Below are positions 1 through 11,371 of a DNA stretch of 11,371 nt, one piece after another. Source of the stretch: Azolla caroliniana (lineage: Eukaryota; Plantae; Polypodiophyta); the NCBI GenBank assembly GCA_043228905.1, contig JBHGNT010001161.1, forward strand, positions 1-11,371, given 5' to 3'. The position numbers and the translations under genes were made by a program. Below the pieces are notes generated by a model that saw only the letters and a list, made by a program, of their open reading frames with translations, had not been told where the DNA came from and searched no databases. The first letter of the stretch is position 1, and every line of letters starts with the position of its first letter.

Positions 1-227
1 ACACTGTTGGTGCTAATGTGTATGAATGTATTTACAATAGTATGCCATGGAATTTGTAGCTACAAGTAGTAATTACCATGTTCTCTTGTAAAACAAACAT
101 GTATTTCGCGAAAACAGTTAAATAAATTCGTTTGAGAATCAATTTCTTGTATACAGTTTGCTTTCTGTGCTTCTTTCTCAATAAAATCATGTCTTTTTTG
201 TTAAGTTTTAAGTTTTAAGTTATAGCG

Positions 228-302
228 AAATAGTCATCAGTAGCTAATTAGCTGTACAAATGCAGCTAATTAGCTGTCAATAGCTAAATAGTCATCAATA
301 GC
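228..302. repeat. Outlying copies of the minisatellite palindrome plus a short direct repeat
   Basis: TAGCTAATTAGCTG at 241-254 and CAGCTAATTAGCTG at 263-276, bracketed by AAATAGTCATCA(G/A)TAGC at 228-244 and 286-302. Confidence 0.75.
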
Positions 303-407
303 ATGAAATCAACAATCTGCAACATATTCCTCAAATTACACAGTAGATAAGTACATTGGGAACAAGTAATTAAATTCTTCATTGAATAATGTCATCTCTT
401 TACATAT

Positions 408-1502
408 TTATAAATTACCATTGGAAATGTCTACAAATCTCCTATAAACAGCTAAGCTCTTGCTAGTCAGTGGAAAGAGTCTACATATATTATTTGCATA
501 TCGATCTCGGTATGGAGTCCACAACCATGCACCTAGTTGGCAGCTCACTGTTTGCACCAGGTACTGTTCAGGCATTTCCTCGGGTAGAATGAGACAGCAT
601 CTCTGAATATTGAAGTAGTGTCGGAAATGTTCTATATCCAAAATCAATGTATTGTCGGCATTATATTCAGACCAAGTAGCCCAAAAATCAGAAAGTCTCT
701 TGAATCTTGCAGCTTCCATTTGCTCACAATTTTCTCGTGCCTATTGACCTTTAAAACGACTTCGCCATTTTGGGAAGAATCTTGCTAAACACTTCCACAC
801 ATCTGATTTTGGTTTTCCACTCCAAATAAACAAATCAAAGTATTGCACAACCCACTCTAGAAACTGATTCGCGTCCCTTCTTGGCTGCATATATCTCACA
901 CTCATCAAGACTTTATCAAGCTGCAAGATCAAGGCTCTTCTTTCGACTTCTAGTGGTTTAGGTTTCCATTCTTGAAACTGAGCCGTTGTTACACCATTTT
1001 CTGGTAGGACACGATCAATCTCAATCAGCTCAGGTTCGGCCGACACAACTGGCGTCCTTTTCCTCTTCAAACCCCTAGTCGACTATGTTGGGCTTGGCTT
1101 CACATTCTGGTGCTCTTGTTTTGTCGACTTAGTTATCAATCCTTGGATTACCTCCGTGCATGTAGCTACTGATCTGCTCGATATCAGTCCACTGGTATCA
1201 CATGATGCATCTACTTGCAACACCAAGTCATCTGTGCAACATGCTGCATCTACCTGCAACACCAAGTCATTTGTGCAACATGCTTGATCAACTTGTGTGA
1301 CCAGATCACTTGTGTCAGTTGCTACATCTACTTTCAAGATGGGGCCCTTTAAACATGCCGCAACATCAACAGTATCCACACTGCCATTGGCCTTACGAGC
1401 AATAGAATCAAACCCTTTAGACTCTACAACATCAGAAAACACCAACATATTCACACTCACAAAGTAACTAACAGTCTCACAAAACAACATCCTGAACATC
1501 AA
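408..1502 (-). pseudogene. Decayed CDS with a C-terminal FCP1/NIF-type (CTD phosphatase-like) HAD domain, preceded by 13-aa repeats and a KRKR motif
   Basis: ORFs 1083-1502, 741-1070 and 408-719 are in the same frame, separated only by single TAG codons (1085-1083, 743-741): ..KPSPT*STRGLKRKR.. and ..FKGQ*ARENCEQMEAARFKRL... Motif order LILQLDKVL / RRDANQFLEW / FDLFIWS / KRLSDFW / YNADNTLILD matches the FCP1/NIF pattern (LVLDLDxTL, RPxxxxFL, xxWS, KxL, NTLLxDD). Possible splice acceptor TTGTAG ending at 1424. Confidence 0.7.
1201..1317 (-). repeat. In-frame 39-bp (13-aa) tandem repeat, about 3 copies
   Basis: CATG(A/C)TGCATCTAC(T/C)TGCAACACCAAGTCAT(C/T)TGTGCAA units at 1201 and 1240 and a degenerate unit at 1279; protein DLVTQVDQACCTN / DLVLQVDAACCTD / DLVLQVDASCDTS. 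Confidence 0.9.
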
Positions 1503-1672
1503 AGAGTTTCAGTCATAGAACAACACTCTTCAAATTATCTTGGAAAAACATCATAGAGTTCCATTACATAATGTGGATCAAGCAACAACCAATCTGAGGT
1601 TTTACTTGTCCAACAGGATAGTAAAACTTCATAAAACCCTAGCAAAATCCCTAAGCTAACAATCATATCCAA

Positions 1673-2208
1673 CTAAACAGTATTTCGCTCCACTACGTCT
1701 GGGCCCCTTGACCGAGTAACTAGTCTTGTTCCTAATCGTGGCCCCTTCTTCAGCCTTTTTCGGGCCGGTTGCCCATTTAGCCTTGCTTCTTTCACCCAAT
1801 GCGCAAGTGTGTCCTCCTCCGACAACCTTCCCATCGCCTCAACAGCTAATTGCACATCAGCTGTTTCTTGAATTAGCTTTTCAAGTACAGAGGGATCTGT
1901 TTGGACATTTTCAGTAGTAGGGCTCGGTGGGGTGGAATCAAGGTCTTGAGATTCGAAGAAATGTTGCATCAAGTGTTCATAAACACTGTTGTTGTGAACC
2001 TCAGTTTTACATGTTGTTTCCACTATTTCATGGCATTTCACATCATTGCCTAATTCAGAACACTGTTCCAAAAGAATAGGGTGGAGCTAATCTGAAGGAG
2101 ATGTGATAGCAGGACTCTTACTTTCAGCCACGTTGGCAGCAGTATCCTCATCTGTTGCAGCGTCATCAGCACCAGACACATCATGTGCCGTCCTTAATCC
2201 ACAAGATT
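1673..2208 (-). pseudogene. Probable decayed exon: acidic/low-complexity linker with NLS-like PARKRLKK
   Basis: ORF 1673-2071 extends upstream in frame through one TAG (2089-2087) as SCGLRTAHDVSGADDAATDEDTAANVAESKSPAITSPSD*LHPILLEQ, up to an acceptor-like TTGTAG (AG at 2210-2209). No family recognised. Confidence 0.45.
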
Positions 2209-2218
2209 CTACAATAAC

Positions 2219-3514
2219 ATGGTAGCTATTTAGGATAGCTAATTAGCTACTTTACTAAACTATGGTAGAAGCTAGGATAGCTAATTAGCTAGTACGATAG
2301 CTAATTAGGATAGCTAATTAGCTAATACGATAGCTAATTAGCTACTTTACTCAACTATGGTAGTAGCTAGGATAGCTAATTAGCTACTATGGTAGCTAAT
2401 TAGCTACTTTACTCAACTATGGTAATAGCTAGGATAGCTAATTAGCTACTTTACTCAACTATGGTAGTAGCTAGGATAGCTAATTAGCTACTTTACTAAC
2501 TATGTTAGTAGCTAGGATAGCTAATTAGCTACTTTACTCAACTATGGTAGTAGCTAGGATAGCTAATTAGCTACTTTACTAACTATGGTAGTAGCTAGGA
2601 TAGCTAATTAGCTACTTTACTCAACTATGGTAGTAGCTAGGATAGCTAATTAGCTACTTTACTCAACTATGGTAGTAGCTAGGATAGCTAATTAGCTACT
2701 TTACTCAACTATGGTAGTAGCTAGGATAGCTAATTAGCTACTTTACTCAACTATGGTAGTAGCTAGGATAGCTAATTAGCTACAATGATAGCTAATTAGC
2801 TACTTTCTCAACTATGTAGTAGCTAGGATAGCTTATTAGCTACTAGGATAGCTAATTAGCTGCTAGTAGCTAATTAGCTACTAGGATAGCTAATTGGTTA
2901 CCAGTAGCTATATAGCTAGTAGGATAGATAATTAGCTTTTTGACACAACTATGGTACTAACTAATTAGCTAGTACCATAGCTAATTAGCTACTAGGATAG
3001 CTAATTAGCTGCCAATAGCTATTTAGCTACAAGGATAGCTTATTAGCTACTTTACACAACTATGGCAGTAGCTAATTAGCTAGTAGGATAGCTAATTAGG
3101 TACTAGGATAGCTAATAAGTTGACAGTAGCTAATTAGCTAGTAGGATAGCTAATTAGCTTTTCTACACAACTATGGTACTAACTAATTAGCTAGTACCAT
3201 AGCTAATTAGCTACTAGGATAGCTAATTAGCTGCCAGTAGCTAACTAGCTGCCAATAGCTAATTAGCTACTTTACACAACTATGGTGCTAGCTAATTAGC
3301 TATGAGTAGCTTATTAGCTAGTAGCTAACTAGCTGCCAGTAGCTAATTAGCTACTTTACACAACTATGGTGCTAGCTAATTAGCTATGAGTAGCTAATTA
3401 GCTAGTAGCTAATTAACTACTCTAGTAAACTATGGCAGCAACTAATTAACTAATAGGATAGCTATTAGCTGCTTTAATCAACTATGGTAGTAGCTAATTA
3501 GCTACAACGATAGC
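2219..3514. repeat. Minisatellite built on the 14-bp palindrome TAGCTAATTAGCTA; 42-bp core unit
   Basis: Unit CTTTACTCAACTATGGTAGTAGCTAGGATAGCTAATTAGCTA (starts at 2615, 2657, 2699, 2741); homogeneous about 2345-2783, degenerate flanks with about 17-20-bp subunits and higher-order duplications (offset 222 bp: 2951 vs 3173; offset 84 bp: 3271 vs 3355). Confidence 0.97.
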
Positions 3515-3570
3515 AGCAAAATAGTTTCCATACTTTTTACGGCTTAGCTAATTAGAAAAGACTAAGCTTA

Positions 3571-4714
3571 TTAGCTACAGTATGGTAGAGTTGTACTGCA
3601 ATCTCCGAAATAGAATGCAGTAATTCGACAGGCATGTTGAAAACAAAGCAGATGGTATGTGTGGTTGCATGGTTGTAGGTGAACCAACAAAGACGCAGTT
3701 TTGTCCTCCACACCTAACCCGCAAGCGATGCAACGTGCTTGAACTGTCAATAAATCATTTTCTGGTTCTCCTTCATTTGGTAAGGGAGCAAGAATGTTCA
3801 GGTCCAAATCCTGTCTGGTCCTTACCATCCCCTCCACAAAATGTAGCTGCTTCTTAAGACAGCTAACTACCTGTTCTTGATGAATGTATTGTTCCTTCAA
3901 CGCAACAGAGAAATTTACCGATTAATTATTCCTGTTGTTGAAAGATACACCAACTTTGCTCAAGAATCATTAACTTACTTGAAGCTTATCCAAATTGTAA
4001 TCTGCAACAGTATTTACACCTAGAAGGTCTAGGTTCATTGAAAGAACCTGGATCTCTATTTGCAGTTGTATTTTCCGCTGGGGATCCAGTGGCCCCTCTA
4101 ATTCAAGCTCCTATTGCGCAACCTATTCCAGATAATGCTTGATTGACACAATCACATACCAGCAAAACAATAGTTACCTGAATCTTATTTCTAATCATTG
4201 TAACAACGGAAGTAACTTTGCTCTCCATTGCAGAAGCCATTGTGGCTTTCTCTAAATCAGTCTTAAAAAATGCCAATGTCTCACAGGCTTCATGGACATT
4301 TTTTAGCATATAGCTAACGAATGTCTCACCTGTATCATCGACATTGGCTTTCCTTGGGTGTCGGTGTGGTGTATGCCCCCGGTCTTGCTGGGAGTCGGCA
4401 GTTGCATCAACAGCTGCCATGCTCCAAAATCTGTCTATTTTTTGTGCCAAGGTCCTCATCTTTCGGCATCTTTTTACTGATGCCTCACCATAGACTGCCC
4501 AAGCTACCCTATACATTTCAGGGTCTCTGGATTCCTTCGTTGTTTTGCAGTACTCATATGCAAATGCTCTAGCAAATGAAACTGTCAACTCATTGTTGAC
4601 TGGGATCTCCTGATGAACTTTCTGGTGCAGCCTCATGCAGTCATCGTACAAGTCGGCTCGTACATGCTTTAGCTTGACCTCTGCCTTTGACTCTAGGCAC
4701 TGTATATTCCCCAT
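3571..4714 (-). pseudogene. Decayed spliced CDS: unknown N-terminal domain, coiled-coil exon and RING-H2-like zinc finger
   Basis: Predicted exons 4714-4178, 4122-3979 and 3900-3571 join in phase 0: donors CAG/GTAACT (4177) and CAA/GTAAGT (3978); acceptors AATAG/ (4123) and a damaged TGTTGCG/ (3901). Middle exon is exactly 48 codons (VAQ*ELELEGPLDPQRKIQLQIEIQVLSMNLDLLGVNTVADYNLDKLQ). Last exon has CIAC...PCNHTYHLLC...YFGDC (C-x2-C...C-x-H-x2-H-x2-C; the 7th ligand reads TAT, one change from TGT). Confidence 0.6.
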
Positions 4715-4853
4715 GTTGTTGTTTTTCCAGCATTATTTGCTGAAGATCCCCCAACAAACGGTGATTTTCTTGTTCTAGTGCTACAAATTTCTCTTTTAAG
4801 CACTGGAACTCCGAGAAAACAGATTGGTATTCCTGAGTGCTAACAGTTTCCAT
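4641..4853 (-). CDS. Short coiled-coil ORF, probably the N-terminus of a truncated gypsy-type gag
   Basis: First ATG after the LTR, PBS and pyrimidine-rich leader (4980-4854); heptad-like FQCLKEKFVALEQENHRLLGDLQQI. No capsid motif follows; it overlaps the 4714 ORF in another frame. Confidence 0.45.
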   Translation of the reverse strand: METVSTQEYQSVFSEFQCLKEKFVALEQENHRLLGDLQQIMLEKQQHGEYTVPRVKGRGQAKACTSRLVR

Positions 4854-4980
4854 TTTACTAGGGAGGATAAGAGGATTAGTATGAAGGTAAAAAAGGGGTA
4901 AGAAGATGAGGGAAACTGGAAAAAAGGGGATATGTAAGAAGATAAAAGGAAGAGGAGGAAAGGAGGAGACGGAAGGAGAA

Positions 4981-4993
4981 CAAATCGGTTCAA
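4981..4993 (-). other. Putative self-priming primer-binding site (non-tRNA)
   Basis: On the - strand TTGAACCGATTTG begins 2 nt after the LTR terminal CA (4996), lacks the TGG of tRNA PBSs, and is 13/13 complementary to - strand 5216-5204 (CAAATCGGTTCAA). Confidence 0.75.
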
Positions 4994-5240
4994 ATTGTTA
5001 GGAATTGTACTCAGACAGAGAAGAAATTAGTATTAAGAGAGGAATATTAGTACTAAGAGGAATAGAGGGTGTAAAACACTCAAGAGAAGGAGAGAGAGTG
5101 TGTGTGTGAATGAGTGAGAGATCGAGGGAGAGAAAATGATGATGATAGCGATATATTATGTGAGAAGAATATACAAGGAAGGCTAGGAGGCTTAAGACTG
5201 GCGTTGAACCGATTTGGTTCGAAATAATGTCTTGTGCCTC

Positions 5241-5248
5241 CTTTTATA
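5241..5248 (-). promoter_or_regulatory. LTR TATA box
   Basis: CTATAAAAGG on the - strand; predicts a start site near 5215-5220. Confidence 0.7.
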
Positions 5249-5267
5249 GTGTTCTTAGGAGTAGTCC

Positions 5268-5287
5268 TGAAGCTTCTAGAATGTTCC
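5268..5287. promoter_or_regulatory. Perfect four-unit heat-shock element
   Basis: tGAAg-cTTCt-aGAAt-gTTCc, alternating nGAAn pentamers, 20-40 bp upstream of the LTR TATA box. Confidence 0.75.
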
Positions 5288-5362
5288 AGAGAAATCTGGA
5301 ATATACATTAATTTTCTATTGTAAAACTTAAATAAAAATAATATCCTACGTATTACAATAGA

Positions 5363-5420
5363 TAGTGTAATGGTCAAGAGCTCGACCCATGTAACATAAG
5401 GTCATGAATTCAAGTCTTGT
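5363..5420 (+). other. tRNA-like segment with Pol III A-box and degenerate B-box inside the LTR U3
   Basis: TAGTGTAATGG (5363-5373), AGGTC variable-loop-like motif, ATGAA-TTCAAGT-CTTGT T-arm-like motif; T5363 to T5409 is 46 nt, the U8-to-T54 spacing of a standard tRNA. Acceptor and anticodon stems do not pair, so it is not a functional tRNA. Confidence 0.45.
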
Positions 5421-5434
5421 CATATCATGACAAC

Positions 5435-8400
5435 AACTACTGCAAGAAACCCGGACACAATAAAGCCAATTGTCGTGCACTCAAGGCCAAAAATGATAAG
5501 GCTCAGTAAGGCGAGCAGAAGAGTAGCCGACACAAGGAGATCAACTACGTCGGCTCTACAGCCGAAGTATTATCAAACGACCCGAACATACTATCAATTG
5601 AGAACCCAATCGAATCAGAAGTTTTGTTTACAACTGAAAAATCGAGCACATGGCTCTTAGACTCAGGTGCGTCCTTTCATGTGACTCCTCATCAATCCCA
5701 ATTCCGGCAATACACAGCCCGACAGTCCGACTCAGTACAAAGTTCTGCTTATGACTGAAGAATCGAGCACATGGCTCTTAGCCTCGGGTGTGTCCTTTCA
5801 TGTGACTCCTCATCGATCCCAATTCCGGCAATACACGGTCTGACATTCCGACTCAGTACGAGTAGGAAATTCGCAACATTGCGACATAATTGGAATCGGC
5901 ACGGTAGAGCTCAACCTTGCAGGTGGCTCTACATTACTACTACACAATGTCCGACATGTACCTGAGCTCTCAAGACCACTGATCTCAGTCGGACAATTGG
6001 ATGAAGACAGCATTCGTGTTGGCTTCTCATCAAGAGGGTGGACGCTCCACAGGGGGAAGCCCCTGCTTGCTCGAGGACCGAAGATACACTCATTGTATTC
6101 CTTGCACATCACACTCAGAGAGGGTGACCTGTTTCTGGTTGACATCCCCGAGTCATCACTATGGCATGGACGACTCAGACACCTCAGCAAGGCTGACGTC
6201 ACGCACTTATTCCAAGCCGAATACATCCCCAAACTCTCCTTCTCGGATCATCAATTCTGCGAGCATTGCCAATAGGGAAAACAAACAGCCGCTACACACC
6301 CATCATCCGCCCCGAGAGAATCGAGTCCGCTCGATTTGGTCCACTCGGATGTCTGTGGTCCCATGCCACATCAATCTCTTGGCGGTGCTTTGTATTTCGT
6401 CAGCTTCATTGACGACTCGACTCGGAAGGTGTGAACTTATCCGATCAAAAGGAAAGATCAACACGAGTGTTCTCGATCTTCTCCGTTTGGCTCGCTATGG
6501 TGGAGAATCAATCCGGCCAAAAACTGAAATGCTTTTGGACCAATAACGGGGGAGAGTTCAAATCAAAAGAATTCGTCAAAATTTGCTGACAACGTGGCAT
6601 CAGACATTAATTTGCGGCACCCCACAGTCTGGAGCAGAATGGAATTGCCGAGGGAATGAATCAGACAATTCAAGAAAGGATAGTTTCCATGCTCCAACAC
6701 TCCAGACTGTCGGATGGCTTCTGGGCAGAGGCCCTACTTACAACAGTACACATAATCAGTATGTCGCCGAGCAGGCCTCTAGGACTTCGGATCCCTTAGG
6801 AACTATGGACCGGTAGTAAGCCAAATTATAACAAGCTGAGGATTTTCGAATGCGAGGCATACACCCTCATCCCGAAAGATGATCGCCACAAACTTGCACC
6901 AAGGTTTAGGAAATGTATTTTCCTCGGTTATGGACCAGATGGCGAAATAGGATACCGACTCTAGGACCCCGAGCATAGACAAATCGTCTGAAGTTCGGAC
7001 GTCGTGTTCAACAAGTCAACTATGCATCAATCGGTTGAAAAACCCATCGAAGTCCGAAGGGTAATTTTCTCCAATGTGCCAACCCTTCATGAAGGCCCAG
7101 CTCACAACACGCAGTCAATTTCACGGGAAGTTGAACCCTCTAACACCGACTTGGCAGTGTTAGACTCGGCACAGCCAAATGACTCGGATTTGGACCATCC
7201 GACCTCAACACCCAATGCAACCAGTCCAATCATACCTCGACGATCTGAGACACTATCACAACCCCCGGAAAGATACTCTCCTGATATCTTCCTCATGGAT
7301 GTCGGAGAACTGACGTCATACGAAGAAGCATCGACATCAGCCGACTCGGCCACTTGGCATCTAGCAATGGAGTCCGAAATGAACTCCATTCGTGCAAACC
7401 GCACTTGGGACTTGGTCGAATCACCGAAGGATCGACGTGCCCTTCTGTGTAAGTGGGTCTATCGAGTTAAGGAGACGCCTGACTTGGCCACCCTGAAATT
7501 CAAGGTCAAATTAGTAGCAAAGGGTTTTTGACAAGCATACTGTGTCAACTTCGACGAAATCTTTTCACCAGTGGTGAAAATGACCACCCTTCGCTTTATG
7601 TTGGGCGTAGTGGCAGCCGAGAATTTGGAGCTGATTCAGATAGATTTCAAAACGGCTTTCCTCCACGGTGATCTTGAGGAGGAAATTTATATGGAACAGC
7701 CGAAAGGCTTCGTGGTATCTGGTCAAGAACATCTAGTCTTCCGACTCGGGAAGAGTCTTTACGGCCTGAAACAGATGCCACGACAATGGTACAAGAAGTT
7801 TGACAACTTCATCCAATCGATCGGCTTCTCCAAGAGCGATGAGGACCACTGCCTCTTCATGAAAACAGCTCGGGATGGATCACCCATCTTCCTCATCATC
7901 TACGTGGATGACATGCTCATCTTCGGTCGCCATGACAAAGAACTCGCTGAACTTGTTCTACAACTACAGTTAAAATTTGCCATGAAGGACCTCGGTCCGG
8001 CATGACACATCCTTGGTATGAAAATTAGTCGGAATCGAAATCGAAGACAATTGTTTCTATCTCAATCCGACTACATCGGTCGTGTCCTAGAATGCTTCAA
8101 CATGCAATCGGTGAAATCTGCCTCAACCCCGCTCCCTATTAGCACTCGGTTTTCTCAGCATGAGTGTTCAACATCCGGTCTGGAGGGGGAAATTATGAGA
8201 TCGGTACCGTATGCACCGGCAATCGGCTCTCTAATGTACGCGATGGTCGCGACACGGCCCAACATCGCTCATGTCGTCATAGTCATCAGCAAGTTTATGC
8301 ACAATCCTAGCCGATCGCATTGGAACGCAGTCAAGCATGTGTTCAGATATCTAGTGGGCACAAAAGACCTTGGTATTCTATTCGGCCCAAACGATATCTC

Positions 8401-8884
8401 AGGCATAGTCGGATACACCAACTTGGACTTTGCAGGTTGCATAAACAGTCATAAATCAACAACCGGATATTGTTTTAAACTCTGCAATGGAGCAATCTCA
8501 TGGAAATCGAAACTTCAGGAGTGCACCGCCACATCAACGACCGAGGCCAAATACGTAGCCGCGTTCGATGCAGCAAAAGAGGCCTTATGACTCGGTCGAC
8601 TGGCTTGCACATTTTGACAAACCGAAATCGGCTCGGCTCCAATTGTTTACAGTGATAGTCAAGGTGTTGTTGCTCTGTCAAAAAATCCGGTTCATCACAA
8701 CGCCTCCAAGCATATCGACATTCAACATCATTTCGTTCGGGACTGTGTCATTTCAGGGAAAATCGGCCTTGAGAAGGTACCTACAACCGACAACGTTGCG
8801 GATGCAATGACCAAGTGTCTCCCGGCGGATCGATTTCTATCCCTTTGGCATCGAATGGGCGTAATGAAGAATCAATCCTATTAA
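5435..8884 (+). pseudogene. copia gag-pol polyprotein pseudogene (many stops and frameshifts)
   Basis: NYCKKPGHNKANC (knuckle missing first Cys, 5435); WLLDSGASFH protease (5651); LWHGRLRHLS...CEHC; LDLVHSDVCGP integrase (6330); AMESEMNSIRANRTWDLV, CKWVY, TAFLHGDLEEEIYMEQP, SLYGLKQ, YVDDML (7901) RT; STTGY...ISWKSK...STTEAKY, ADAMTKCL RNase H; stop TAA at 8882-8884. Confidence 0.95.
5619..5860 (+). repeat. 121-bp tandem duplication of the protease active-site region
   Basis: 5619-5739 and 5740-5860; about 13 mismatches by manual count; copy 1 WLLDSGASFH, copy 2 WLLASGVSFH. Confidence 0.92.
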
Positions 8885-9084
8885 ATCGGACACTCAGAAC
8901 GTTTCTCGGACAATAGACCTGGATAGTTCGAACTTCGGCTTCAATCTCTCCGAACTCAGCCAATTCAGCCTTCTGCTCTTCGGACTTCACCAACTAGAAT
9001 GAATTCTCGATTGTTCGTAAACCTTGTATCAATCTGTATTGTTCATTCATTTCAGTCTAGAGATTTCAGATGTATACGCCCATT

Positions 9085-9093
9085 ACGGGGGAG
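9085..9093 (+). other. Polypurine tract
   Basis: ACGGGGGAG directly before the LTR start TGTTG at 9094. Confidence 0.85.
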
Positions 9094-9419
9094 TGTTGAA
9101 TACATGCTTCTAATGGACGTATTCACATTATCTCCTTTTGTACACACTAGGCTTAGGCTATTTATGTAAATAGTGAGAAGGGCAGTTTCCCTAAGCCAGT
9201 CAGTATATAAACTGACTTTGTAACCTAGTTACGTGTGGGTCGCGTTAAGTTGTAATACACTCTTGACGTTGTGCCTAACTGTCTCTCTCTCTCTCTTGTG
9301 TACTAGTTGGTTTCTTTTCTGCCTTCGCTACCATCAAAGCTATGAACTTGCATCCATTTACGATCTTATTCTAGAAGAGTGTTGATCTTGTTCCGCATTA
9401 GATGATGGTATTCCCAACA
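9094..9419 (+). repeat. copia 3' LTR (326 bp)
   Basis: TGTTG...CAACA termini, TATATAAA at 9204-9211, (CT)n tract; homologous to the reverse complement of 10738-11064. Confidence 0.92.
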
Positions 9420-9650
9420 CCAGGAACAGGTCACCCTCTCTGAGTGTGATGTAGAACGGGTACAGAGAATGTACTTTCGGTCCTCAAGCAAGTAGGAGGT
9501 TCTCCCTTTGGAGTGTCCACCCTCTTGATGAGAAGTCGGCACGAATGTCATCTTCGTCCAATTGTCTGACTAAAATCGAAGGTTTGGAGAGCTCAAGTAC
9601 ATGTCGGACATTGTGTAGTACTAAAGTAGAACCACCTGGGATGTTGAAAG
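9420..9650 (-). pseudogene. copia pol fragment (protease C-terminal to pre-integrase region)
   Basis: GGSTLVLHNVRHVLELSKPSILVRQLDED...SLYPFYITLREGDLFL; inverted homolog of about 5910-6138. Confidence 0.9.
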
Positions 9651-9656
9651 AATCTA

Positions 9657-10115
9657 ACTGCTCATGAGCAACATTGGTCTTAGTTCATCTTCGATTGTCA
9701 TCCCCTAAGCCGAAATCTGGGAGCTTAAACTTTCGTACTCGTTCAAGTGAGCCTAGACCGAGTCGGATTCTTTCATCCGCAGGTTGTAGAGGTGCCGAAT
9801 CGAATATATATTTGTGGCAGGGACCTTCTTCTCATAAGTGTCTAACAATGTCTTCCATAGTTGAAAGGTTGTCGAACATGATTGCATTGTGAAGTACACT
9901 GACTCCGACAAGTGCATCCAAATGGTTTCTCAAACAATTCTATCAAGTTTCGTCCACTCATTCGGCTTGATTCCTTCTAGAGGGTTTTCGTTCTTGATTG
10001 GATCTATCTAACCCTTGACTATTAGATATTCTTGAATTTGCTCCATCCAAAAGTTGAAGTTCAATCTGTCGAACTTCCTTAGACCCATCTCTGATGAGCC
10101 GGATGTTGATGCCAT
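9657..10115 (-). pseudogene. copia gag N-terminal (UBN2-type) region with in-frame stops
   Basis: MASTSGSSEMGLRKFDRLNFNFWMEQIQEYL...EWTKLDRIV*ETIWMHLS...LWKTLLDTYEKK...LYNLRMKESDSV*AHLNEY...IEDELRPMLLMSS in a single frame with four internal stops. Confidence 0.9.
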
Positions 10116-10723
10116 CTGTGTCGGTTGACTAGACTCTGTTAGGAGTCGATTACGAATGGTGGTAGGATGGAGCTAACTAGCTCTCCCGATATTGTTCTAG
10201 TCAGATTTGAACACAATTCGTATCGGCTTCGATTATTGGTTGATTCTATCGGAAGTGACTATAGTCGATTGACTTAGTCGAGTTGAATAAGATTTTGTCA
10301 ATTGGATTTCGAATGCTGATTTAGAGATGTCGATCACAGATTTTGTGCCGATTATCCAGGCCAATCCTGCTTCAAGTGACTACGACAATGTCATCTAGCA
10401 AAGTGAAGCATGAATAGGAGTTGTTTCCTGGAGCTGGATCTTCTTTGAGAGGTTACAACAAATGACTAGGTAGTTTCTAACCTGATAAAGCACGATCAAG
10501 GCCGATTTGATAGAGATTCCACTCCTAGTAGCTCCAATCACTGAGGCAAGGTACAACCGACTGGCTTCCCTTAAGAGTGATCTAGTGAAGTAGAGTGTGA
10601 ATCTTCAATTTTCTTTCTCTTCTCAAGATGAGATCTTGAACTTCAAGGGAGATGAAACAAGGGAGACGAAACAAGAATATTGTTGAAGACTGATGAAGGT
10701 TGGGTGCGAGTGGAAGAACCTCC

Positions 10724-10735
10724 GCTCTGATACCA
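10724..10735 (-). other. Primer-binding site for initiator tRNA-Met
   Basis: TGGTATCAGAGC, 2 nt after the LTR terminal CA; canonical plant LTR retrotransposon PBS. Confidence 0.95.
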
Positions 10736-10737
10736 GA

Positions 10738-11064
10738 TGTTGGGAACTGAGACTATCAGTGCGGAAACATAAACAACACCTTGAGATGAAGATCACCTAG
10801 TATGAGTAAGCAAGATAAAACAGAGAATTTGAGAGAGAGACAGAGAGGCACGCAATGTAAAAGTATTATTCAGAGAATGGTTACAACACAATGGACGCGG
10901 CAGCTCTCTTACAAATAACAACAACTTTTTGAGCTAGGTTACAAAGCCCTTTATATACTAACTGGGCTAGGGCAACTGCCCTTTAAAATATTCACATAAA
11001 TGACCTAAACCTAGACTTTCCAAGAGACAGTGTGAATACGGTCATTAGATACTTGTATTCAACA
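10738..11064 (-). repeat. copia 5' LTR (327 bp)
   Basis: - strand TGTTGAATACAAG...TTCCCAACA, internal TATATAAAG, followed by the PBS. Confidence 0.93.
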
Positions 11065-11371
11065 AATACTTCATACATGTGTCAACACGGATCAGCCATT
11101 TTCGAGCACCCTATGGGCGTGACCCCCAACTCTCACCAGAATCGTCCATTCCAAACTTGCCAGAAGCGGCACTAGGATGTGGGTCGAATTACCCTGACTT
11201 ATGCTGATGGAACCAAAGTCCTTGTTTACTTCCCGGTTCACCGATGCGGTCTCAACGAATCCCTCATGCACCGATGGATCGGCCCATTCACCGTACTTCG
11301 TGCCATCAAATCCACTACTTGTTCCGACACGATTCCAACGGCCGATTCACCTCCGCCCATGTTTCCCGCAT
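11065..11371 (+). pseudogene. Ty3/gypsy integrase C-terminal fragment
   Basis: NTS...YGRDP, then TYADGTKVLVYFPVHRCGLNESLMHRWIGPFTVLRAIKSTT (GPF/Y motif) and AHVSR, with frameshifts. Confidence 0.8.

What the first reader, a model, noticed from the sequence alone, without database searches (positions are those of the whole stretch)
4981..5248. LTR element that appears to prime reverse transcription on its own transcript
Seen: 2 nt after the LTR terminal CA, where a tRNA PBS (TGG...) should be, is TTGAACCGATTTG (4993-4981); its perfect 13-nt complement is at 5216-5204, starting 32 nt downstream of the first T of the LTR TATA box, i.e. at the expected transcription start. Established: fission-yeast Tf1 anneals the first 11 nt of its mRNA to its PBS and generates a self-primer by RNase H cleavage; this has been proposed for related chromoviruses such as the Tcn1 lineage of fungi and non-seed plants. 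Inference: a plant-context self-priming element with identifiable primer and PBS. A local hairpin GAACC-AAATC-GGTTC (5220-5206) could compete with priming if transcription starts a few nt further upstream.
Basis: partly seen in the sequence, partly recalled or inferred. Interest (0 to 1): 0.8.

Follow-up and report, generated by a model that had tools for sequence, protein, structure and literature searches.

The report
Self-priming plant retrotransposon with fossil intermediates
This is the front end of a very abundant plant jumping gene whose primer site pairs with its own terminal repeat, so it likely starts copying itself with the first 12 bases of its own RNA, as already predicted for its group, and about 3% of its copies are scrambled insertions joined exactly at that pairing, which likely record the priming step.

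Summary
Confirmed, with corrections. Window 5432-4996 (minus strand) is the 5' LTR of a Tcn1-like Ty3/gypsy chromovirus with at least 1529 LTR-PBS junctions in this genome. The family duplex is 12 nt (5215-5204 with 4993-4982); the 13th pair occurs in 10 of 111 copies. Primer and PBS covary (C:G 33, U:A 69 copies), the primer starts 33 nt after the TATA box in 105 of 111, and none of 39 tRNAs checked fits. Self-priming is already predicted for 83% of Tcn1 elements, so the class is known. New here: 47 junctions continue into antisense U3. Of 45 examined, 42 (40 independent) read U3-primer-antisense U5; 13 have perfect 5-bp target duplications, one around two U3 ends. Their copied segment stops just after the primer in 10 of 34 and never inside it, as expected if the RNA is cut after base 12. 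The transcription start is unmapped (no raw RNA reads). The window is a chimeric contig cutting the element at 4708. This scan noted self-priming candidates in other lineages, and one U3-U3 dimer in another genome.

The parts
4996..5432 (-). 5' LTR (TG...CA, 437 bp) of a Tcn1-like chromovirus, inserted in the gag region of an older Copia element
   Evidence: Copia domains
5242..5248 (-). TATA box; first T 33 nt before primer base 1
   Evidence: spacing 33 in 105 of 111 copies
5216..5220 (-). U3-end arm GAACC, complementary to primer bases 6-10; likely masks the primer copy at the 3' end of the RNA
   Evidence: GAACC in 98 of 111 copies while the 7 nt before it vary; folds; function inferred
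5204..5215 (-). Predicted 12-nt self-primer at the inferred transcription start; predicted cut between 5204 and 5203
   Evidence: covariation; junction ends in aberrant copies; start site not mapped
4996..5203 (-). Rest of R and U5: pyrimidine-rich loop with AGTACT-based hairpins
4982..4993 (-). Primer-binding site, 2 nt after the LTR, exact complement of the primer
4977..4981 (-). Hypervariable 0-5 nt just 3' of the PBS; the G at 4981 gives this copy a 13th pair
   Evidence: 7 haplotypes among 12 young copies; first base T76 C21 G10 A4
4708..4853 (-). Start of gag (ATG at 4853), cut at the chimeric join; continues as gag-pol on C15
4707..4708 (.). Join between C2-derived (1-4707) and C15-derived (4708-11371) sequence; likely an assembly chimera

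Best explanation
The site is the primer-binding site of a Tcn1-like chromovirus that likely primes reverse transcription Tf1-style: the first 12 bases of its RNA pair with the PBS, are likely cut off after base 12 by the element's RNase H, and are likely extended into U5. The primer is probably not removed, so the plus strand would copy it and rewrite the PBS in each cycle. That would explain the covariation, the scrambled 0-5 bases after the PBS, and PBSs lengthened by U3-complementary bases. In about 3% of copies a primer-ended or PBS-ended strand likely re-annealed at the same 12-bp duplex and was extended, giving U3-primer-antisense-U5 molecules that integrase inserted. Shown: the pairing, covariation, TATA spacing, junction structures and target duplications. 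Inferred: start site, cleavage, primer retention and the order of template switches.
For: Pairing: 76 of 111 copies 12/12, 105 of 111 at least 11/12 counting G.U. Position 5: C:G 33, T:A 69, discordant 8, other 1. Position 3: A:T 101, T:A 3. The U3 tree puts T:A in two clades and the position-3 swap in one. The helix forms with 10-12 pairs in the folds of 23 of 24 diverse copies. TATA spacing is fixed and the start is a C|A step. No match to a tRNA 3' end; best internal match 9 nt, in the T-loop. Hotspot 3' of the PBS in 12 copies with LTRs at least 99.5% identical. PBS extended by 5, 5 and 9 U3-complementary nt in L157, L166, L170. Inverted junctions; L160 has two U3 ends inside a direct GTAGA duplication. 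Ends: 10 of 34 at -1..+6 (4% expected, p about 8e-7, window chosen after seeing the data), 0 at -12..-2, 5 read through to U3. Tf1 keeps a PBS copy on its cDNA and adds untemplated bases (PMC11042837, passages).
Against: No transcription start was measured. The third helix of the Tf1 'pretzel' (3' flank of the PBS paired with the LTR) was not found. Covariation rests on about 2-3 events in related copies, and the main swap is at a CpG, where deamination is frequent. For 82 of the 111 copies the search pattern fixed PBS bases 1-6. Seven copies break position 3 and seven break position 5. 20 of 40 inverted insertions have no matching far end in the about 7 kb fetched, and L215, the second U3-U3 case, has no duplication. 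An inverted junction alone needs only complementarity, not self-priming. The tRNA set was partial (39 distinct genes, 11 anticodon labels).
Confidence: 0.9

Rival explanations
1. A host tRNA or tRNA fragment primes, and the complementarity to the LTR is structural or incidental.
For: Primer bases 6-12 resemble a tRNA T-loop; tRNA-Asn genes share 8-9 nt internally. Half-tRNA priming exists in some Copia lineages (PMC6317226, passages).
Against: No TGG and no match to a CCA end in 39 tRNAs. Three PBS alleles track the LTR allele. Extended PBSs copy U3, not tRNA. Copied segments stop at +1, not at the inferred start.
Confidence: 0.04
2. Self-priming is right, but the inverted copies arose after insertion, by chromosomal template switching at the 12-bp inverted repeat.
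For: An internal rearrangement would also keep the target duplication. Half of the cases lack a matched far end.
Against: L160 has a direct duplication around two U3 ends. L213 and L218 continue through antisense U3, PPT and internal sequence like a minus strand after its first jump. No clean inversion restoring PBS plus 5' UTR was seen in 41 loci. The class includes the youngest copies (U3 identity 100% in 6 of 17).
Confidence: 0.12
3. The primer is self-derived but comes from the 3' R copy or a longer U3-containing RNA, not from the capped 5' end.
For: The aberrant class has U3 attached to the primer; 3 normal copies have longer complementarity.
Against: Complementarity stops at 12 nt in 101 of 111 copies. 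The U3 arm would sequester the 3' copy (-12.4 kcal/mol in a young copy, about equal to the duplex at -12.7).
Confidence: 0.05

Closest known systems
Tcn1 clade of plant chromoviruses (REXdb; Neumann 2019, PMC6317226; Novikova 2010, PMC2864245)
   Same: Ty3/gypsy order with chromodomain, overlapping gag and pol frames, 5-bp target duplication, about 5.7 kb, no tRNA PBS, LTR-complementary PBS (83% of 1500 Tcn1 elements predicted self-priming; supplement row).
   Different: Published support is a BLAST match of at least 10 nt. I did not find covariation, a cleavage footprint or integrated by-products reported. The per-element supplement could not be read, so this family or its primer may already be listed. 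Novikova 2010 found no self-primer in SM-Tcn1.
Tf1/Tf2 of Schizosaccharomyces pombe, Tj1, Tosmo1-3 (Tf1/sushi group)
   Same: 5' RNA end complementary to the PBS; RT groups with fungal and vertebrate relatives; SH3_Tf2-1 and chromodomain present.
   Different: 12-nt rather than 11-nt primer. No helix between the PBS 3' flank and the LTR, so no full three-duplex pretzel. Two frames rather than one. Cleavage is proven for Tf1 (PMC7175516, passage) and only inferred here.
TAR/Houba Ty1/copia elements (predicted self-priming in plants; PMC6317226)
   Same: LTR-complementary PBS.
   Different: Different superfamily.

Membership tests
Ty3/gypsy chromovirus | Gag-PR-RT-RH-IN order with C-terminal chromodomain, LTRs, PPT, target duplication | tested here: met
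   Pfam on family copies; intact 400-aa and 1194-aa frames; PPT and duplications
Tcn1 clade | RT groups with Tf1/sushi elements, apart from seed-plant chromoviruses | tested here: inconclusive
   Quick tree of 44 RT-RH rows: with fungal and vertebrate hits, apart from Cucumis and Closterium, SH-aLRT 93. No named Tcn1 reference was available and only one seed-plant row was included.
Tcn1 clade | Chromodomain with aromatic cage | tested here: met
   EYEV...VDWLGY read in the chromodomain; cage positions assigned from recalled HP1-type numbering
Tcn1 clade | 5-bp duplication, 5.5-9.4 kb, overlapping gag/pol, no tRNA PBS | tested here: met
   (three of 26 full copies are shorter, 5.1-5.2 kb)
Tcn1 clade | Host is a moss or club-moss | not tested
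   Genome unnamed; a non-seed plant is inferred
Tf1-type self-priming | PBS complementary to an LTR segment at the predicted RNA start | tested here: met
Tf1-type self-priming | The primer is the capped 5' end of the RNA | not testable with these tools
   Only contigs were served, no raw RNA reads
Tf1-type self-priming | RNase H cut at the primer's 3' end | tested here: inconclusive
   Indirect footprint only: junction ends cluster at -1..+6
Tf1-type self-priming | Three-duplex pretzel structure | tested here: not met
   Central duplex yes; U5-side helix variable; PBS 3' flank never paired to the LTR in 24 folds

The most novel reading that the evidence does not exclude
The genome holds about 40 independent integrated reverse-transcription by-products that map the self-primer cut site of a plant retrotransposon to base 12/13 without an experiment. 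They define a simpler self-priming design (one duplex plus a U3 hairpin masking the 3' primer copy), which also yields short elements with two U3 ends, a possible route from LTR elements to terminal-inverted-repeat elements.
Probability: 0.6. Interest if true: 0.68.

Novelty: new member of a known kind. Interest (0 to 1): 0.52.

Why it matters
Self-priming is proven only in fission yeast and predicted for non-seed-plant Tcn1 elements from a short sequence match. Here covariation, a replication-error hotspot and integrated by-products point to the same 12 bases and the same cut site, in a family with very recent copies. That makes the plant case directly testable by RNA-end and cDNA-end sequencing. 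The junction search is also a cheap genomic test for any other suspected self-priming element.

Tried and rejected
Transcription start: no RNA holder listed; four contig sets laid, which cannot show starts. One contig in X3 has the same inverted joint, but whether that run is RNA is a guess. Rfam: no family at gathering score and no tRNA hit for the LTR. A 13-nt primer was rejected as the family norm. A cap-copied C after the PBS is not supported as the rule (T 76, C 21). Full pretzel not found. Cross-species: 31 of 79 metagenome loci were checked for LTR pairs. Four gave 10-11 nt LTR-complementary PBSs of unrelated sequence (L309, L310, L314, L328), five gave 8 nt, and the rest had no usable LTR pair or no clear site. 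The closest LTR-bearing relative, L253, keeps the site with two mismatches. The U3 hairpin was strong in 2 of 6 distant relatives, weak in 1 and absent in 3. One search had an off-by-one error and was redone; one search mislocated the primer of L157, whose 5-nt extension was read by eye. Three primary Tf1 papers were not held, so Tf1 facts come from passages of PMC11042837, PMC7175516, PMC4600332, PMC5341516 and bioRxiv 2022.12.06.519325. No control junction at another inverted repeat was counted: the only other repeats of 10 nt or more within 600 nt are short-loop hairpins.

Full report
Observation. The described sequences are present: LTR 5432-4996 on the minus strand, two spacer bases, TTGAACCGATTTG at 4993-4981, and its complement at 5216-5204. 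None of 10,000 LTR shuffles gave a complement of 12 nt or more, and the region folds at z = -4.95. The window is a whole small contig. Bases 1-4707 match C2 at 99.98% and bases 4708-11371 match C15 at about 99.5%, so the element stops inside gag here only because of a join that is likely an assembly chimera. On C15 it continues through gag, protease, RT, RNase H and part of integrase; no 3' LTR was seen in the 7 kb fetched. The LTR sits in the gag region of an older Copia element (for its domains).

The family. The LTR search gave 3734 candidates, 40 scored. An exact pattern for the LTR end plus PBS matches 1529 places, control 0. Of 60 stretches fetched around such junctions, 26 held a full element: 5.1-5.8 kb, LTR identity 93.5-100%, a polypurine tract, and 5-bp target duplications (21 perfect, 4 with one mismatch, 1 unmatched). 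Young copies have overlapping 400-aa gag and 1194-aa pol frames, and family copies carry gag, protease, RT, RNase H, SH3_Tf2-1 and chromo domains. Named homologues are mostly fungal and vertebrate elements. A quick tree groups the RT with them, apart from one seed-plant and one algal row (SH-aLRT 93, no named Tcn1 reference). These features fit the Tcn1 clade as tabulated by Neumann 2019 (PMC6317226; passages and one supplement row read), for which self-priming is predicted in 83% of 1500 elements.

Primer and PBS. Of 119 junction copies examined, 111 had an intact upstream LTR. 76 pair at all 12 positions and 105 at 11 or more. Position 5 is C:G in 33 and T:A in 69, with 8 discordant and 1 other. 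Position 3 is A:T in 101 and T:A in 3, with 7 broken. On a U3 tree the T:A allele fills two clades and the position-3 swap one, so this is about 2-3 events, not 100 independent ones, and the main swap is at a CpG. For 82 of these copies the search fixed PBS bases 1-6, so only primer positions 1-6 are a fair test. The first T of the TATA box is 33 nt before primer base 1 in 105 of 111. Complementarity stops at 12 nt in 101 copies; 10, including this one, have a 13th pair. None of 39 distinct tRNA genes from 30 loci has a matching 3' end; this is a partial set. In single folds of 24 diverse leaders the helix formed with 10-12 pairs in 23 and 8 pairs in the relative L253. The PBS 3' flank never paired with the LTR, so the three-duplex pretzel described for Tf1 (bioRxiv 2022.12.06.519325, passages) is not met.

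Footprints of replication. First, in 12 copies with LTRs at least 99.5% identical (mean divergence 0.9%), the bases just 3' of the PBS show 7 haplotypes in an 8-column window; only the CT microsatellite of the two LTRs is as variable. This fits a plus strand running off the primer's 5' end and adding untemplated bases, as reported for Tf1 (PMC11042837, passages). Second, 47 of the 1529 junctions continue with GGTTC, the complement of the U3 end. I examined 45. Three are normal elements whose PBS is extended by 5, 5 and 9 U3-complementary bases. The other 42 read, on the opposite strand, U3, primer, AC, antisense U5; three of them are duplicates of one insertion, leaving 40 independent cases. 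Most then jump into the sense body of the element and run to a 3' LTR. Thirteen have a perfect 5-bp duplication, seven have one mismatch (L191 is less certain, its far end being distant), and twenty have no matching far end in the about 7 kb fetched. L160 has two U3 ends inside a direct GTAGA duplication; L215 has the same layout without one. L213 and L218 continue through antisense U3, PPT and internal sequence.

Where the copied segment stops. Ends were mapped for 39 of the 40. Five read through the primer into U3. Of the other 34, ten stop at -1 to +6 relative to the primer's 3' end, against about 4% expected (p about 8e-7, window chosen afterwards). None stops at -12 to -2. L192, L195, L197 and L208 reach the first base after the primer, give or take a chance-matching T. 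A template that ended at the transcription start would give stops near -11; a template cut after base 12 gives this pattern.

Mechanism. Most likely transcription starts at 5215, bases 1-12 pair with the PBS, RNase H cuts after base 12, and the 12-mer primes minus-strand synthesis and stays on. The plus strand then copies it, so the PBS follows the primer. The by-products are best explained by a PBS-tailed strand annealing to the primer sequence of a plus-sense U3 strand, or a primer-ended strand annealing to a PBS, followed by extension; my data do not separate these two routes. An inverted junction needs only complementarity; it is the stop positions, the covariation and the lack of a tRNA match that point to self-priming. 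The conserved U3 arm (GAACC in 98 of 111) would fold onto the primer copy at the RNA's 3' end and likely keep it from priming. Two of six distant relatives have a 9-bp hairpin of different sequence at the same place; three have none.

Novelty. The class and its predicted mechanism are in print. My eight literature searches found no report of covariation, a cut-site footprint or such integrated by-products in a plant, but the library lacks most subscription papers, three primary Tf1 papers were not held, and the REXdb per-element file was unreadable. Earlier notes of this scan list self-priming candidates in other lineages and one U3-U3 dimer in another genome, and nothing for this sequence. 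Verdict: a new member of a known kind with unusually direct genomic support; interest 0.52.

Noticed in passing
window 5361-5432 (+ strand; U3 end of the LTR): tRNA-like stretch with A-box and B-box-like motifs (motif names recalled), antisense to the element. In young copy L086 it aligns to a host tRNA-Ile(tat) gene above all 200 shuffles and folds at -36.4 kcal/mol; in the window copy 5 of 200 shuffles score as well. No Rfam tRNA hit.
   Followed up: partly
window 4707/4708: Join of C2-derived and C15-derived sequence; the contig is likely an assembly chimera.
   Followed up: yes
window about 200-4707: Part of another young repeat family (597 candidates, about 95% identity) with a long AGCTAATTAGCT-based 42-nt tandem array at 2188-3590 and open frames without a clear Pfam match.
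   Followed up: no
window 5433 to about 9420; 5619-5859; 9419-9647: Decayed Copia element hosting the LTR, with a 120-bp tandem duplication and, at 9419-9647, an inverted 229-nt copy of its own pol region.
   Followed up: no
L217, L202, L182, L209 (own genome): Inverted U3-primer-U5 pieces joined directly to complete or tandem elements that share LTRs.
   Followed up: partly
L220-L228 (C5) and L237 (C2): Tandem arrays of tRNA-Lys(ttt) genes on C5 and tRNA-Ile(tat) genes on C2.
   Followed up: no
L309, L310, L314, L328 (metagenome loci): Distant relatives with 10-11 nt LTR-complementary PBSs of unrelated sequence; L309 and L328 also have a 9-bp U3 hairpin over the primer.
   Followed up: partly
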